Of a DNA stretch of 64,000 nt, positions 37,301 to 43,300 are shown piece by piece (positions within the stretch are counted from its first letter, which is position 1; each line of letters starts with the position of its first letter). Made by a program: the position numbers. The stretch is from Rhina ancylostomus. Lineage: Eukaryota. The stretch lies in NCBI GenBank assembly GCA_030265395.1, contig JARFYF010000036.1, forward strand, positions 29,654,382 through 29,718,381. The letters run 5' to 3'.

Positions 37301-40300
37301 TGTCACTAAACTCTGCCGTACATTCAAAGGAGCCTCTCTTTCCTAGTTGGGTGATGTTGCTCAGGGCATTTCTGATTTGTCACAGGTTTAATCATCTGTG
37401 CCGCATGTTTGTCTAACACCAAAGTCACTTGGCAGCAATGGACAATGCATGGCTGCCCTACCACCACTAATGTTACCTATTTTCTGTTGTATCTGAGAGA
37501 CAGCTGATTTATGTCTTCCATATTCTTATGTTCTGCCTCTGAACAAAAGCATTAAAAAATCATCAGTGCCTTGAATGGTGTATCAATCAGTTACCACACT
37601 GTATGCCAACAATTGTTTGAGCATTGGTCTGCCCAATGGAGATTCAGTAAGGTTCAAGGTCATGTAATACAGAAGGTATCTTTGCACACTGTGCCAATGC
37701 AGGGCGCTGAAGGATAATTGGCCAAGTCCAGAACTGAGGTGCTGTGGGGAAGGGGGGGGCCAAGTGTTCTCTGTGGAGGGCAATACACATGTTTGGAGGA
37801 TGTTAGTGAACTGCAGCCTGTGGTGGCTCAGCATCAGGCTTGTGACTTTGAGCCTTGAGAGGCTGGAAAGGGCTTGCGTCCGAAAGAACATTGTGCCAGG
37901 AATTATGTCATTATATCGGCATCAGGATGGGAAAGAGCTCAAAGCAATAACAATTTGATATGGAGTATCTACTCCAATTTCTGGAGTAGGTTCAAAGTCA
38001 TTGTTAACCAAGTTCTATTTTGAGAAACATTGATTTTTCAAAGCATAGTGCTAAAAGATGTAGTTCTGCGTGTCTGTAAATTGAAATTTTGATTTTTACT
38101 GTCCCGAGATCCATTGTGCACTCTTTTTACAGGAACACCCAAGGTAGTTCACTACATATGAACTGTAAATACTTAAATAATTGATTTCACTCTGTATTTG
38201 GCATAATTTCAAACCATGTTTATTGCAAACATTAAATTAAACAGTAGAAAATGTGTATTTAATTTACAGAAAATAGCACCATAACTTGCTTGTTCACCAA
38301 GTTTCATATGTTCAAAGATGTACACTAATATACAAAACAAGAGGATTTCAAGTTCATGTGTATGTTGAACAATTCTTCATTCTGTTTTAAAAAATTGTCT
38401 GAATTGCAATGTAATGCTAGCACTTATTACTAAATATAAACAATTATACTTTTTCTCAATACATTTTTGGGCAAATAATTTTTCAAATTACTACAAATGT
38501 TCTGGCAGTTCGTTTTACAACAGGCTACTGTCAACTCCCCAAAATAGTCAATTGATCAAATGTCAGTGATTACTGTGCTATAATCTGCATTTGAATGTTA
38601 TTTTTAACACAACTAATTTCAGTTAAATACATTCATCCACTTCAGAATCTTTGACCATTCATAACCATTCATTAACATTTAAGATCATTACTGAAGATGC
38701 AATTTTTCATTTCTGCCACAAAAGTGTTACTGGATTATTACAGATACAATAAAGTGCTCTAATGTTCAGTTGATGCAAAAACAATTTATAGATGCATCAT
38801 GTTCAAACATTGGAAGCACACAAGTTGGCAACTGATGAAAGTTAAAGACTCCTTGATCAAAAGTCAATCATTTCATTGTTCTAACAATTCACCATTGTGA
38901 GCAAATTGGCAGAAATTCTGTAACTGAGTGTACAGGTGGAGAGATGAACAAACATCTGTGTATGTTCTTTCATTTCTCAATTTTCCATTTACTGAGCCCA
39001 GGTAACTGCTGTTCATTTCTCTATATCTGCTCTAGGAATCTTTGGATATTTAAAGGTGAAAGCAAATGCACAATAAATTTAAAATTTATGTCTTCATTTT
39101 AAAGTTGGCATGGATTATGTGTAGCTTAGCCTGATATATAGGAATGAAGGTTAATGATGGATTTTCATAGAAAAATTAAAGTTTACATTTAAAAATAAAT
39201 AACACTGGTAANNNNNNNNNNNNNNNNNNNNNNNNNNNNNNNNNNNNNNNNNNNNNNNNNNNNNNNNNNNNNNNNNNNNNNNNNNNNNNNNNNNNNNNNN
39301 NNNNNNNNNNNTCATAGAAAAATTAAAGTTTACATATAAAAATAAATAACACTGGTAACTACATGGATATCTTAGGCTACCAGAGTCAAAATATTTGCTA
39401 CTGTAAGAAAACAAAACCTGGCCTGATTTATAAGATAGCAACATTCTTCTGGCTAATGGTAGCTTACATCCTGATATATGGTCTGGCAGGCAGTGGTGAT
39501 GCCAGGATATTTTTGAACTCCAAATATTAAGATTTGCTCCAGCGCACATCTTGCACCAGATTGTACCTCACGCTGTTCACTATTCTGGGTTTGAACATTT
39601 TATGTGGCACTTCCTTTGAAGAGTAAAATTCTTTTGATTAAATGGCCACCAACTGAAACATTTAAGATCTCATATAAAATCTTCAGCCTTTTAACCTGTT
39701 CAGCACTGAGACTAAGCTTTCAAAGTACTAGTATCTTTGTATGGACTAAATAAAATTGGAAATTTCTGTAAATGAGTAATTTAAAATAGAATTATATGTA
39801 CAAAGCAAATAGCATTTTTGAAATCAGTCATATTATTAAATGGTAATGCCAATATCTGGCAGAACATTACTGTTCTCAAAGGGTTAATAACACATGGACA
39901 GTAAACTACAGCCCTTGTTTCTGAAGATATTTAACTTGAATATGCAGTAATCCAGTTTGTTTTGCGTAGTGGTTCTTGATTTAAAAATCTAGATTGGCCA
40001 TGGACCATTACATTTCTAGTGTACTTCAGTCTGCCAGGTGTTTATGTTTGAAATGAGTATTTCCAGTTAGTTCATTGTGAGATTTACAGGAAGTATTTTA
40101 AATCGAATGATGGCCAATTCTTTCAGTTCTAGTTGCTCTTGTTACCTTGGTTTTGTCAGCTATTCATTGGTAAATCGTTCAGTAAAACACCACTGAATGT
40201 AGAGTACAGCTCCTCTGTTCCTGTGTAAGCTAATTTTCCTGACATGACAACAACACTGACTTCATCACCAGCTTTCAGCCTGAGAATTAGGCTGAATACA

Positions 40301-43300
40301 GCGAGGCCACCTCCAGGATGATTCTTAGTTTCATCCACTGAAATTTCTAGTAGTTCAGTCCTGTAGCCAGCTGTGTCCACTTGTGCAATGCTCACATTGG
40401 ATATTGTCAGCACAGCCTCAATGCGTTCATTTCTCTGCGGAGTCAATACAGCACTAATAAAATACTGTCCGCTGTGAGGGACGGTAAATATACCTGCAAA
40501 ACAAATGAAACAGATAACTTTAGATTCCTGTAGCCATGGGCTAGAACTGAAATCTTGGTCTGAAGACCGTACAAGGACCAGGCAATAATTATTTTCAGTA
40601 AGATCTGAGCCAACTACCATTGAGTTTCTACTCCGTCAGATCAGCATTTTGGGGGTAACCAATGATTAAATAAATACTGGGCCCAAAATAGCAAGTCAGA
40701 GCATGGGTAAGCTTACATGAATGAATAGGCTCTTAACTTCACAACGTCATACCGCCACTACAAGGCACAGATGGGGGAATGCAATAGAATATCTTCCACT
40801 TGGCTGGATTAACAGAGATCCAAGATGCTCAAGAAGTTAACATTATCCAGATTTCAGGACAAAACAATTTCTGGATTCATCGTCCACCACTACGTGCATT
40901 TCATCCACCATCTTAAATATTTCCTCTACAAATAGCTTTGGTATGTGCTAATCGCAAATAGTAATTGACAAGGCTTTTTTTAACAGCGCCTTCCAGATGT
41001 CCACCATGAACCACAGGTAAGTGGTTTTACTTTCAGAAATTTACGTCAAACACAGAACAGTACAGCACACAGCAATGATTTGTTTCTGGGGCTTGTAAAA
41101 TGGCTTATGCTGGTTTGAAATGATAAACTACTCTACCAATCAAGCGTCTGTGTGTTTGCCAGGGATGTCATACCTGTGTTGGGTGCATAATGCCCTCCAT
41201 CATTGATGAGAATTTTGTTGAACCTTACAACCCCATTATCGGCAGTGAAGGGCTCTTCAGTTAGACCAACAGAAAATACGACATGTTTTGTAAGAGCATT
41301 GTTTCCTATAAATAAAACATCAATGANNNNNNNNNNNNNNNNNNGTGATAGAAACTAAAGGATTTGTTGATTTTACTGACTGAATTGAAAATCCACCAAT
41401 AAATTTAATTACCAAACATGGACAGCAGTGTGCAATAATGGAAAACATTCATGCATATTGAAATATTTAATGAAAGTATTCTTGGGATAAATCTGCTGAT
41501 TTTTATCGAGGAACGAAACGCCTGGCCAGCTGGTTACTGCCAATGCAGGAAATGTTTGTGATGGAAAGAATCTGTTTAAGGCACTTCCTATGTTGGGAAC
41601 AGTAAACTGAACTGTCAAATGAGGTTAATCTTTGAATTTTATGCTTCCCTTAATTGGGTATACACCTGTGCTACATAGTTAATTGACCATTGGGTTATCA
41701 GTGTTTCAATTTAAAAAAACAGAATATGTGCATTTGCTGAATTTTCCAATGCTCTAAATTTATTAGTGCCAAGTAAAAATATTGAGATGCCACTGTCATT
41801 AGAACTTGTGGACAATCCTTTAATGCTGCCACCTGAGGTAGACTTGAACTTGATACAGATGTATGAAATAAACATTCTTGACCAGTGCATTTAAGTTAAG
41901 CCTATTCTTAACTCCAGATGGTTAGAACCACAAAGGACAAAACTGAAGTGAAACTTGGCACAATTATCAAGGAAAATATTCCCCAACTCTTCCATTAATC
42001 ACATTAAACTCCCATACATGCAGAGAATTCAAAAACTTGAACAAAGTTCAAAAAGAAACACCTTTGATGCATTCAATATGGTTCTGTCAGAAATGTTGCT
42101 ATTGATCATTGACCTTCTTGCGCAGCTCCCATAATACATACAGCATGTGATGCACATTGTGGCTAATGCTGTTGGCTTCTAACCCTGCCAGCTTGTCATT
42201 TTCCTTCCATTGACTGTGGTGGGGATAATAGTTTTGTCCAGTCATTGCAGGAGGAGAGAAAACCAAGACTGGAATATCACTCTCAAATTAAGAAAACTGG
42301 GCACTCTGTGGTAAACTACTGAATAAAAAATCTTGCCAATTGGGAGTAAACTAGAATTTGGAAGGTTTTAGCTTTGTCTCTGCCCAACAGGCTCACACTT
42401 ATCCTCTTCACTGACCTGGAAATGCTCCTGTTTTACTGCAGGCCTCAGAGGAAGGGTACTCCTTGGGGTCTTATAAATACCCACTGTGCAATAAGCTGCT
42501 CACATAATGTAGTCTTGCACCCAGACATTGTTTACTTTGGAATGGCACCGTTAATTGAAAGATCATCAATTAATCATTTTATGTACACAAGGAAAGGGAA
42601 TTTCTAAGGCACCTTGCACATAGATTTCCGGATGTCCCAAAGAACTTTGATGTACTTCTGATGCTTTGTCACTGGATAGTGTTGGAAAAGTGTTAGCTAA
42701 CTGGAGTATGGTGACTTCTCACAAATAATTTGTTCATTAACAATAAGTAGTGTAGGATAAATACAGATCAATGCACTGGGGAAATCGCCCAGTTCAAAAT
42801 AGTGCCACGGGGTTTGTCTTTTCACACACATACGAGAGTGAGTAGGCCTTTGATTTACTGTCTCACTGATGGCACTTCCAACAGTGCAGCACTTTCTCAG
42901 TACTCCACTGGTATTGGTTAATTATTGTCACTTGTACCAAGGTGCAGCGAAAAACTTGCCTTGCATACCGATGTAGTGTTAGTCTGAGGCATGACTATCA
43001 GATACCAAAATTAGAAGAAAAAAAGTTTCTAAACTGAATGACAAAGTCAGAAATGGATTTATTAGGCTTGATAATAAGGGATTCTGCTTTAGTTCACAAG
43101 AACAAAAGTTATGGATTCTGTACACTGGAGTTGAGCTTTTGGCAATTGGATTCAATAGAGACCTCCTGCATTCAATGGTTTATGGGTAAAATATAACTTC
43201 TCATCGTGGATGAATGCATCCAATTTTAAAATAGGAGACACCAGAGTACAGAGGATATACAATAACTGCCATTTACATAGTTTGTATAATGTCTCTCAGT

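What the first reader, a model, noticed from the sequence alone, without database searches (positions are those of the whole stretch)
40156..41305. EMILIN3-like gene with an intact C-terminal gC1q domain
Seen: two phase-1 exons (41305-41174, 40493-40156) encode a complete, stop-free gC1q domain in frame with the coiled-coil exon, which ends in a strong G|gtgagt donor. Established: mammalian EMILIN-3 is the EMILIN/multimerin member that lacks gC1q, while EMILIN-1/2 have it for trimer assembly and (EMILIN-1) integrin binding. The upstream exons carry EMILIN3-type signatures (PKYKIGYKTVT; GERIDRLE; VGFG.I..GL) and the neighbour is LPIN3-like. The gC1q itself most resembles that of EMILIN2, as expected for a sister paralog. 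Inference: this is the ancestral full-length EMILIN3, and gC1q was lost secondarily in other lineages. I cannot verify whether this has been reported.
Basis: partly seen in the sequence, partly recalled or inferred. Interest (0 to 1): 0.72.

Follow-up and report, generated by a model that had tools for sequence, protein, structure and literature searches.

The report
Ray EMILIN-3 gene keeps its gC1q
This is the tail end of the EMILIN-3 matrix-protein gene of a sawfish-like ray, and it still encodes the globular C1q head that EMILIN-3 of bony fishes, birds and mammals lacks, as public gene models of other sharks and rays already show.

Summary
On the minus strand, exons 41305-41174 and 40493-40156 (both phase 1, correct splice signals, TGA stop) encode an intact gC1q domain. 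They follow a 36-nt collagen mini-exon (45516-45481) and the large coiled-coil exon, which ends G|GTGAGT at 55574.

The gene is the EMILIN3 orthologue, not EMILIN2. In a careful tree, the coiled-coil exon groups with chondrichthyan plus bony-vertebrate EMILIN-3 (100/100). Sharks and rays have a separate EMILIN-2.

The exact splice chain is already the RefSeq EMILIN-3 model of Pristis pectinata (98% identical). C1q-bearing "EMILIN-3" is annotated in 13 chondrichthyan species. None of the 103 non-chondrichthyan EMILIN-3 proteins examined has the domain.

The domain is conserved about as well as the coiled coil. It keeps the EMILIN-specific loop and the glutamate aligned with the EMILIN-1 integrin site E933. 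It models as a homotrimer, which may reflect likeness to solved C1q trimers.

Ancestral retention with loss on the bony-vertebrate stem is the most parsimonious reading. The gC1q tree cannot exclude a chondrichthyan capture of EMILIN2-type exons (AU p 0.34-0.46).

Seven literature searches found no paper noting this. Reviews still state that EMILIN-3 lacks gC1q.

The finding is sound, of moderate interest, and already visible in databases.

The parts
60453..60616 (-). EMILIN3 exon encoding the C-terminal part of the EMI domain and the linker (YRTFLKPKYKIGYKTVTELEWRCCPGYSGDACQ...KGYY)
   Evidence: Pfam EMI PF07546, E 8.3e-12. Splice sites read. 100% identical to P0003 residues 102-156.
55574..57448 (-). 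Large coiled-coil exon (624 whole codons), phase 1 at both ends, donor G|GTGAGT
   Evidence: 98% identical to Pristis pectinata EMILIN-3. Falls in the EMILIN-3 clade with 100/100 support.
45481..45516 (-). 36-nt collagen-like mini-exon (G-LQ-GPI-GPP-GSS-G), phase 1 to phase 1. A cassette exon that some skate isoforms skip.
   Evidence: Sequence and splice sites. Present in P0003. Absent from Leucoraja isoform X2 (P0005) and from the transcript-like P0006.
41174..41305 (-). gC1q exon A (first 43 whole codons of the domain)
   Evidence: Pfam C1q model positions 1-36. 41 of 43 residues identical to P0003, compared by eye.
40156..40493 (-). gC1q exon B (111 codons plus TGA). Carries the EMILIN-type loop and the Glu aligned with EMILIN-1 E933.
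   Evidence: Pfam C1q model positions 81-127. PDB EMILIN-1 gC1q hit, E 2.2e-21. Alignment. 97% identical to P0003.
38219..38263 (-). First canonical poly(A) signals (ATTAAA, AATAAA) downstream of the stop, implying a 3'UTR of about 1.9 kb. Candidate only.
   Evidence: Pattern scan. No transcript evidence.
3727..32945 (+). Convergent neighbour: a complete lipin (phosphatidate phosphatase) gene. Its stop lies about 7.2 kb from the EMILIN3 stop.
   Evidence: tblastn of P0131 finds 18 segments. Exon 1 is 100% identical to Pristis pectinata 'LPIN2-like'. Tree.

Best explanation
The interval is the 3' end of the EMILIN3 orthologue of a batoid very close to Pristis pectinata. It is not human.

In cartilaginous fishes EMILIN-3 has the canonical EMILIN layout: EMI domain, long coiled coil, short collagen stalk (five Gly-X-Y triplets, on an optional 36-nt cassette exon), then a C-terminal gC1q encoded by two phase-1 exons.

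Likely working (inferred from EMILIN-1/-2 biology):
- The gC1q nucleates homotrimer formation, and the trimer zips up through the collagen stalk and the coiled coil.
- The protruding loop of the domain presents a glutamate equivalent to EMILIN-1 E933, the alpha4beta1/alpha9beta1 integrin site.
- The EMI domain keeps its matrix and TGF-beta-related roles.

The gC1q-less EMILIN-3 of bony vertebrates is most simply a derived state. It would come from one loss of the three 3' exons on the osteichthyan stem.
For: Shown by tool results:
- Exon structure and open frames.
- The same splice chain is in RefSeq P0003.
- An unnamed 836-aa protein on a contig of only 3,436 bp (P0006) joins the coiled-coil exon to the gC1q exons. 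The genomic gene spans more than 20 kb, so this contig must be intron-free, that is transcript-like.
- Orthology. The careful tree of the coiled-coil exon used 42 rows and 624 columns, a chosen subset: 7 of 13 chondrichthyan EMILIN-3, 12 of 103 other EMILIN-3, 6 of 8 named EMILIN-2, and 16 unnamed representatives. One truncated row was left out. It gives an EMILIN-3 clade at 100/100, made of chondrichthyans plus the window (100/100) and bony vertebrates (99/98). The EMILIN-2 clade has 85/97. Both are separated from EMILIN-1-like proteins at 100/100.
- Distribution. 15 of the 17 chondrichthyan-type proteins listed carry C1q, covering 13 named species including Callorhinchus. 0 of the 103 other EMILIN-3 proteins do (96 named from bony vertebrates, 7 unnamed). 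A BLAST check agrees: 15 of 120.
- An exhaustive HMMER search of 1.84 billion representatives with exon B gave 82 hits. Only one representative is EMILIN-3-type (P0010). 47 went into the tree. The 32 left out were assigned by BLAST: 30 match bony EMILIN-2 or EMILIN-1-like best, 2 (P0327, P0329) have only weak, near-equal matches to all four clades, and none is clearly EMILIN-3-type.
- Constraint. gC1q identity to Pristis is 76-90% across chondrichthyans. The coiled-coil exon is 71-88% identical across the seven compared.
- The E-x-L-E motif, whose last Glu aligns with E933, is invariant in all 13 chondrichthyan EMILIN-3 and in the window. Residue numbering is from passages of PMC3342094.
- A two-exon gC1q is the EMILIN1/2 gene pattern. 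Multimerins use a single exon (PMC3342094).
- Homotrimer model of P0003 residues 793-948: score 0.88, best of 3 controls 0.00. The runs share at least 87% of contacts and partner pLDDT is at least 70. The mark was reached by 21 of 30 proteins solved as pairs of one chain and by 0 of 23 solved as single chains. An EMILIN-1 gC1q trimer is already solved, so this pass may reflect likeness only.

Inferred, not shown: trimer nucleation, integrin binding, and a single loss on the bony-vertebrate stem.
Against: The gC1q tree (69 rows, 156 columns) does not resolve where chondrichthyan EMILIN-3 branches. The best tree pairs it with bony EMILIN-2 at only 68/39. EMILIN-2 monophyly (AU p 0.343) and chondrichthyan EMILIN-2 plus EMILIN-3 as a clade (AU p 0.456) are not rejected either. 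The direction of change, loss or gain, is therefore not shown by phylogeny.

No cyclostome outgroup was identified.

No vertebrate genomic DNA could be searched for decayed gC1q remnants beside bony-vertebrate EMILIN3.

No RNA data exist for this species.

Short, gC1q-less isoforms are also annotated in Hemitrygon (P0008) and Callorhinchus (P0019). The long form need not be the only product.

NCBI labels the neighbour LPIN2-like.
Confidence: 0.8

Rival explanations
1. Secondary gain. EMILIN3 had already lost its gC1q in the gnathostome ancestor. The chondrichthyan stem lineage then re-acquired a collagen-plus-gC1q exon block copied from EMILIN2, spliced on through the donor at the end of exon 4.
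For: The gC1q is closest to EMILIN-2 (55-63% identity). A clade of chondrichthyan EMILIN-2 plus EMILIN-3 gC1q is not rejected (AU p 0.456).
Against: This needs two events, a loss and then a three-exon capture at the homologous position and phase, where retention needs one. The coiled-coil region is also closest to EMILIN-2 among the paralogues, so that resemblance is expected under retention too. The chondrichthyan EMILIN-3 gC1q clade sits on a long stem (0.47). It is about as far from chondrichthyan EMILIN-2 (path about 0.74) as from bony EMILIN-2 (about 0.65), with no sign of a recent copy. It also lacks the loop cysteine present in 15 of the 16 EMILIN-2 rows shown, and in all four chondrichthyan ones.
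Confidence: 0.13
2. The locus is really EMILIN2-LPIN2, and the gene is mislabelled.
For: NCBI calls the neighbouring lipin 'LPIN2-like' in all chondrichthyans listed. The gC1q most resembles that of EMILIN-2.
Against: The coiled-coil and EMI exons group with EMILIN-3. Separate EMILIN-2 proteins exist in Leucoraja, Rhincodon and Pristiophorus; in the first two they lie on contigs of a different length from the EMILIN-3 contig. In the LPIN tree the coelacanth 'LPIN2 X2' (listed contig length equal to that of coelacanth EMILIN-3) groups with tetrapod LPIN3 at 98 SH-aLRT, with the chondrichthyan clade as sister. No tetrapod LPIN2 appears among the 120 best exon-1 hits. Atlas look-alikes rank LPIN1- and LPIN3-named clusters at 0.98 and the LPIN2-named cluster at 0.92, which is a lead only.
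Confidence: 0.02
3. The gC1q exons are a separate gene, a pseudogene remnant or a gene-prediction artefact, and are not joined to EMILIN3 in vivo.
For: There is no RNA evidence for this species. The introns are long (about 10 kb and 4 kb). Short isoforms without gC1q are annotated in two species.
Against: The frames are open, with matching phases and consensus splice sites. Conservation is 76-97% across 13 species spanning chimaera to rays. The intron-free, transcript-like P0006 joins the coiled coil to the gC1q. No start codon or signal peptide of its own is evident for a stand-alone gene (read by eye).
Confidence: 0.03

Closest known systems
EMILIN-3 of bony vertebrates (mammals, birds, amphibians, coelacanth, ray-finned fishes)
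   Same: Orthologous EMI domain and coiled coil (38-55% identity over the 624-aa exon; one clade at 100/100). Lipin neighbour: in the bird Scopus umbretta, EMILIN-3 and LPIN3 both list a contig of 102,038 bp.
   Different: The bony-vertebrate proteins stop within a few residues of the position where the ray exon 4 ends. They have no collagen stalk and no gC1q (0 of 103). Reviews describe EMILIN-3 as the member without gC1q (PMC13326518, passages read).
EMILIN-2
   Same: Same layout: EMI, coiled coil, collagen, gC1q. Nearest gC1q (55-63% identity). gC1q split over two exons (PMC3342094). Shares the E-L-L-E loop motif.
   Different: Different paralogue, only 25-37% identical in the coiled coil. 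EMILIN-2 has a proline-rich region and 17 collagen triplets (PMC3342094), against 5 here. 15 of the 16 EMILIN-2 rows shown have a cysteine in the gC1q loop; EMILIN-3 has none there.
EMILIN-1 (gC1q solved: 2KA3, 2OII)
   Same: Exon B aligns colinearly, including the 19-residue Y927-G945 insertion and E933 (numbering from PMC3342094). The trimer model passes.
   Different: Only 39-49% identity to the EMILIN-1-like clade. That clade is the outgroup to EMILIN-2 plus EMILIN-3 in both trees. EMILIN-1 has leucine zippers and 17 collagen triplets.
Multimerin-1 and -2
   Same: EMI domain, coiled coil and gC1q.
   Different: Their gC1q is encoded by a single exon and they have two extra short exons after the EMI domain (PMC3342094). 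No multimerin-like sequence was recognised among the hits I examined; the unnamed ones could not be named.

Membership tests
EMILIN family (EMI domain, coiled coil, collagen, gC1q) | N-terminal cysteine-rich EMI domain | tested here: met
   Pfam PF07546, E 8.3e-12, on the window exon (model positions 40-69 only). The first half of the domain lies outside the window. The full domain is present in the stand-in P0003 (72.7 bits).
EMILIN family (EMI domain, coiled coil, collagen, gC1q) | [quoted passage not shown] | tested here: met
   A 624-codon exon. It is colinear with EMILIN-2 and EMILIN-3 over its whole length. Its only Pfam matches are weak coiled-coil-type ones.
EMILIN family (EMI domain, coiled coil, collagen, gC1q) | Short collagenous stalk before the gC1q | tested here: met
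   Five Gly-X-Y triplets, read by eye. Much shorter than the 17 in EMILIN-1/-2. The stalk is optional, because the cassette exon is skipped in P0005 and P0006.
EMILIN family (EMI domain, coiled coil, collagen, gC1q) | C-terminal gC1q split over two exons, carrying the EMILIN-specific disordered loop and its glutamate | tested here: met
   Two phase-1 exons. Pfam C1q halves. Full-length C1q match in P0003. The loop and the Glu align with Y927-G945 and E933.
EMILIN family (EMI domain, coiled coil, collagen, gC1q) | Homotrimer formation through the gC1q | tested here: inconclusive
   Model only: score 0.88 against 0.00 for the best control. The pass may come from likeness to solved C1q trimers. 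No experiment.
EMILIN-3 orthology group | EMI and coiled-coil sequences group with EMILIN-3 of other vertebrates rather than with EMILIN-1 or EMILIN-2 | tested here: met
   Clade support 100/100. EMI exon ranking. All 120 best hits are EMILIN-3-type.
EMILIN-3 orthology group | Conserved linkage to LPIN3 | tested here: inconclusive
   A convergent lipin gene lies 7.2 kb away. The tree fits LPIN3 orthology (quick method) but holds no true LPIN2. NCBI's label is LPIN2-like.
EMILIN-3 orthology group | Absence of gC1q, the textbook descriptor of EMILIN-3 | tested here: not met
   gC1q is present. This is a descriptor drawn from bony vertebrates, not a criterion of orthology. It is the feature that this finding revises.
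C1q/TNF superfamily | Jelly-roll gC1q domain recognised by the family profile | tested here: met
   PF00386 model positions 1-127, 53.7 bits, in P0003. Weaker PDB hits to C1q-like proteins as well. I did not predict a monomer fold on its own.

The most novel reading that the evidence does not exclude
The gC1q-less EMILIN-3 of bony vertebrates arose by fixation of a short isoform that already existed, not by deletion of exons.

Pattern in the proteins:
- In cartilaginous fishes exon 4 ends G|GT(G/A)AGT.
- The short Callorhinchus isoform (P0019) ends ...DG-KYH, which is what read-through of a GTAAGT donor would encode.
- Bony EMILIN-3 proteins end at the same place with G-(K/E/D)-x-(H/Q)-stop. 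Examples: coelacanth DGENH, turtle GKQH, bichir TGDH, gar NGNH, many teleosts KGDQ.

On this reading, the last two or three residues of human, bird and fish EMILIN-3 are a fossil of the old intron-4 splice donor. The domain was lost by a switch to read-through with intronic polyadenylation.
Probability: 0.3. Interest if true: 0.55.

Novelty: new member of a known kind. Interest (0 to 1): 0.35.

Why it matters
Reviews up to 2025 define EMILIN-3 as the family member without gC1q (PMC13326518). This locus, with 13 annotated chondrichthyan species, shows that the description holds only for bony vertebrates.

It places the change between the gnathostome ancestor and the osteichthyan crown.

It supplies a natural gC1q-bearing EMILIN-3. 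That protein can be used to ask what the domain adds (trimer nucleation, integrin binding) to a protein that works without it in mammals.

It also flags a probable naming error, 'LPIN2-like' for the LPIN3 orthologue, in chondrichthyan and coelacanth annotation.

The finding corrects and refines current descriptions. It does not reveal a new kind of system.

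Tried and rejected
- **Naming the unnamed hits.** I identified clade D as EMILIN-1-like from a PDB search (P0271: 212 bits to EMILIN-1 gC1q, against 100 bits for skate EMILIN-2) and from its Pfam architecture.
- **Resolving the gC1q tree.** This failed. All three arrangements are statistically equal.
- **Alternative 3' exon.** The tail of Hemitrygon isoform X2 has no counterpart in the window, only chance-level matches (best E 0.62). 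Read-through of the window's exon-4 donor runs on for about 70 codons rather than stopping after three. The read-through-isoform idea is therefore not supported by this window itself.
- **Bony-vertebrate remnants among predicted proteins.** None found.
- **LPIN paralogy.** Only LPIN1 and LPIN3 references came back. The Atlas result is a lead only.
- **Papers.** The Schiavinato 2012 paper (PMC3322879) is not held. Its content is cited here only through other papers' reference lists and from recall.
- One search used a wrong frame start and was corrected. The EMI peptide was out of frame and was corrected.
- **Not done.** No search or fold of a joined window model. No monomer structure prediction. 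No Rfam or tRNA scans, which have no bearing here.

Full report
**What is in the sequence.** The gene lies on the minus strand. The coiled-coil exon (57448-55574, 624 whole codons) starts after ...ttttatag and ends ATT G|gtgagt. About 10 kb downstream, a 36-nt exon (45516-45481) lies between ...gaatttcag and gtaaaat. It encodes G-LQ-GPI-GPP-GSS-G. Exon A (41305-41174) and exon B (40493-40156, ending TGA) follow, each with a pyrimidine-rich acceptor and a GT donor. All four junctions are phase 1, so the frame runs through. With the Gly-Asn-Asn that opens exon A there are five Gly-X-Y triplets. The two gC1q exons translate without stops. An N run in the intron just upstream of exon A was left as it is.

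**Is it a gC1q?** Each exon alone matches Pfam C1q (PF00386). Exon A covers model positions 1-36 and exon B covers 81-127, each at 21.6 bits, just below the whole-domain cut-off of 23.7. Exon B alone finds the solved EMILIN-1 gC1q (2KA3/2OII) at E 2.2e-21, and only weak C1q-like hits beyond it. Its C1q match is full length (model 1-127, 53.7 bits), beside an EMI domain. The window therefore comes from a batoid very close to Pristis. It is not human. Residues 1-101 of P0003 find no match in the window, so exons 1-2 lie beyond it or in masked sequence.

**Which EMILIN is it?** The word-indexed search with the coiled-coil exon scored 7,999 candidates and found 211 at E <= 0.001. All 120 best hits are EMILIN-3-type. 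Pairwise, the exon is 55% identical (718 bits) to coelacanth EMILIN-3 and 35% identical (391 bits) to skate EMILIN-2. Across my reference sets, identity is 71-98% to chondrichthyan EMILIN-3, 38-55% to bony EMILIN-3, 25-37% to EMILIN-2 and about 20% to the EMILIN-1-like group.

I built a careful IQ-TREE of this exon region with 42 rows and 624 columns. The rows were a chosen subset: 7 of 13 chondrichthyan EMILIN-3, 12 of 103 other EMILIN-3, 6 of 8 named EMILIN-2, and 7 plus 9 unnamed representatives. One N-terminally truncated row was left out. The tree gives:
- an EMILIN-3 clade at 100/100, made of chondrichthyans plus the window (100/100) and bony vertebrates (99/98);
- an EMILIN-2 clade at 85/97, holding the shark and ray EMILIN-2 plus the bony EMILIN-2;
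- both together at 100/100 against the EMILIN-1-like outgroup (the quick version is).

The partial EMI exon ranks the same way: 87-100% to chondrichthyan EMILIN-3, 57-79% to bony EMILIN-3, 48-68% to EMILIN-1-like and 45-63% to EMILIN-2. Sharks and rays also have a separate EMILIN-2. In Leucoraja and Rhincodon it lies on a contig of a different length from the one carrying EMILIN-3. The 'locus is EMILIN2' alternative is rejected.

**Who has the domain?**
- Among the 120 proteins, 17 are chondrichthyan-type and 15 of those carry C1q. They cover 13 named species from Callorhinchus to rays, plus one unnamed record.
- The two without C1q are short isoforms: Hemitrygon X2 (P0008) and a Callorhinchus Ensembl model (P0019).
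- None of the other 103 proteins carries C1q. These are 96 named, from coelacanth, amphibians, reptiles, birds, a marsupial, bichir, paddlefish, gar and teleosts, plus 7 unnamed. BLAST with the P0003 domain confirms 15 of 120.
- An exhaustive HMMER search of 1.84 billion representative proteins with exon B gave 82 hits at E <= 0.001. Only one representative (P0010, Cetorhinus EMILIN-3) reached E <= 1e-30.
- In the gC1q tree the other rows fall into bony EMILIN-2, chondrichthyan EMILIN-2 or an EMILIN-1-like clade.
- I kept 32 fragments out of the tree because they were too short or aligned only in part. Thirty match bony EMILIN-2 or the EMILIN-1-like clade best. Two (P0327, P0329) give only weak, near-equal matches to all four clades. 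None is clearly EMILIN-3-type.
- I identified the EMILIN-1-like clade from P0271, which scores 212 bits against the solved EMILIN-1 gC1q, compared with 100 bits for skate EMILIN-2. Its architecture is EMI, collagen, C1q. The tool that would have named the unnamed proteins was switched off.

**Is the domain functional?**
- Identity of the domain to Pristis is 76-90% across chondrichthyans. The coiled-coil exon is 71-88% identical across the seven compared. Constraint is thus of the same order as on the rest of the protein.
- The alignment to EMILIN-1 is colinear through the 19-residue insertion Y927-G945. This insertion makes the EMILIN gC1q a nine-stranded fold and carries the alpha4beta1/alpha9beta1 site E933 (passages of PMC3342094).
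- The motif E-x-L-E, whose last Glu aligns with E933, is invariant in all 13 chondrichthyan EMILIN-3 and in the window.
- 15 of the 16 EMILIN-2 rows shown have a cysteine in this loop. EMILIN-3 does not.
- A model of three copies of P0003 residues 793-948 scored 0.88, against 0.00 for the best of 3 controls. The runs share at least 87% of contacts and partner pLDDT is at least 70. The mark was reached by 21 of 30 proteins solved as pairs of one chain and by 0 of 23 solved as single chains. C1q trimers, including that of EMILIN-1, are solved, so this pass shows likeness rather than proof.

**Is it spliced as proposed?** I have no RNA data for this species. Indirect support comes from the RefSeq models of many species, and from an unnamed 836-aa protein (P0006, 23 member sequences). 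P0006 lies on a contig of only 3,436 bp, which cannot hold the more than 14 kb of introns, so it is transcript-like. It joins ...IGDQALIG directly to NKGVTKHVIFSV.... That record, and Leucoraja isoform X2, skip the 36-nt collagen exon. The stalk is therefore a cassette.

**Retention or gain?** Rooted on EMILIN-1-like sequences, the gC1q tree (69 rows, 156 columns) shows chondrichthyan EMILIN-3 as its own clade (100/99) on a long stem (0.47). The order of that clade, chondrichthyan EMILIN-2 (97/98) and bony EMILIN-2 (97/95) is open. AU tests reject none of the three arrangements: EMILIN-2 monophyly p 0.343; chondrichthyan EMILIN-2 plus EMILIN-3 p 0.456; the third is the best tree at 68/39.

Retention is favoured for these reasons:
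- It needs one event where gain needs two.
- The exon layout (collagen exon, then a two-exon gC1q, all phase 1) is that of EMILIN1/2.
- The clade is about equally distant from both EMILIN-2 clades.
- It lacks the EMILIN-2 loop cysteine.

I put retention at about 0.8 and capture at about 0.13.

**The neighbour.** A complete lipin gene (3727-32945, plus strand, 18 tblastn segments) converges on EMILIN3. The two stop codons are 7.2 kb apart. NCBI names it 'LPIN2-like' in every chondrichthyan listed, and 'LPIN2' in coelacanth. The coelacanth entry lists a contig of the same length as coelacanth EMILIN-3. Among the 120 best exon-1 hits, the non-chondrichthyan ones are LPIN3 and squamate LPIN1, with no tetrapod LPIN2.

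A quick tree of 24 of those proteins, rooted on LPIN1, puts coelacanth 'LPIN2' with tetrapod LPIN3 (98 SH-aLRT) and the chondrichthyan clade (99) as their sister. This is the species-tree pattern expected for LPIN3 orthologues. No true LPIN2 was in the tree, so the result is consistent but not decisive. Atlas look-alikes (LPIN1/LPIN3-named clusters 0.98, LPIN2-named 0.92) are a lead only. In the bird Scopus umbretta, EMILIN-3 and LPIN3 both list a contig of 102,038 bp.

**A possible trace of how the domain was lost.** Bony EMILIN-3 proteins end within a few residues of where the ray exon 4 ends. Of the 103, 57 end with Gly at position -3 or -4 followed by K/E/D/N and then H/Q. Examples are coelacanth DGENH, a turtle GKQH, bichir TGDH, gar NGNH and teleosts KGDQ. 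The short Callorhinchus isoform ends DGKYH. G-K and G-E are what read-through of G|GTAAG or G|GTGAG would encode. This suggests that the bony-vertebrate C-terminus is a fossil of the exon-4 donor. It is an inference from protein ends only. Lengths between the last conserved Cys and that Gly vary from 12 to 22 residues. In this window, read-through runs on for about 70 codons. The pattern would also fit a gain through a pre-existing cryptic donor.

**Prior knowledge.** Reviews state that EMILIN-3 is the member without gC1q: PMC13326518 (2025, passages read) and PMC3342094 (2012, passages read). The latter treats the gC1q family as four members. I ran seven full-text searches of the held library:
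- EMILIN-3 / gC1q / lacks;
- EMILIN3 / gC1q / shark;
- EMILIN / multimerin / gC1q / evolution / vertebrates;
- emilin3 / elephant shark;
- emilin / cartilaginous fish / C1q;
- EMILIN-3 / peculiar member / gC1q;
- emilin3 / notochord / gC1q.

None found a paper that notes a gC1q in chondrichthyan EMILIN-3. The one elephant-shark hit (PMC7144352) uses Emilin3 only as a synteny marker. Subscription papers, supplements and the primary EMILIN-3 paper (not held) were not seen. The fact is already visible in RefSeq and UniProt annotation, so it is unremarked rather than unknown.

**Verdict.** The domain is intact and conserved. 'Ancestral and lost in bony vertebrates' is likely but not proven. The finding is a new member of a known kind and of moderate interest.

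Noticed in passing
window 3727-32945 (+): The neighbouring lipin gene is named 'LPIN2-like' by NCBI in all chondrichthyans listed, and 'LPIN2' in coelacanth. It nevertheless branches as the LPIN3 orthologue in an LPIN1-rooted tree. This is probably an annotation naming error.
   Followed up: partly
window 45481-45516 (-): The 36-nt collagen exon is a symmetric phase-1 cassette. Leucoraja isoform X2 (P0005) and the transcript-like P0006 skip it, which removes four of the five Gly-X-Y triplets.
   Followed up: partly
window 55371-55574 (-); proteins P0008, P0019: gC1q-less isoforms are annotated in Hemitrygon (alternative 3' exon) and Callorhinchus (ends DGKYH, as from donor read-through). The Hemitrygon tail has no counterpart in this window. 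Read-through here stays open for about 70 codons.
   Followed up: partly
proteins P0020-P0122: 57 of 103 non-chondrichthyan EMILIN-3 proteins end G-x-(x)-H/Q immediately before the stop, at the position of the chondrichthyan exon-4 donor.
   Followed up: partly
window 40300-40360 (-), loop of gC1q exon B: 15 of the 16 EMILIN-2 gC1q loops shown carry a cysteine (..CGG..). Chondrichthyan EMILIN-3 (HPGGG) and the EMILIN-1-like sequences do not.
   Followed up: no
window 45026-45205 and 61639-61849: Two copies (83-88% identical) of an interspersed, SINE-like repeat lie in EMILIN3 introns, in the same orientation. Similar translated motifs recur near 52060-52340.
   Followed up: no
window 14427-14858 (+): A LINE-type endonuclease/reverse-transcriptase fragment (Pfam Exo_endo_phos_2, E 8.9e-4, below the cut-off) lies inside a lipin intron. 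Other LINE-tail-like ORFs at 3195-3422 and 30563-30766 gave no Pfam match.
   Followed up: partly
window 28250-28300 (+): A (TG)n(TA)n microsatellite directly follows the donor of a lipin C-LIP exon.
   Followed up: no
window beyond 60616 (-): EMILIN3 exons 1-2 (signal peptide and first half of the EMI domain, residues 1-101 of P0003) have no match in the window. The gene is cut off at its 5' end by the window edge, or those exons lie in masked sequence.
   Followed up: partly
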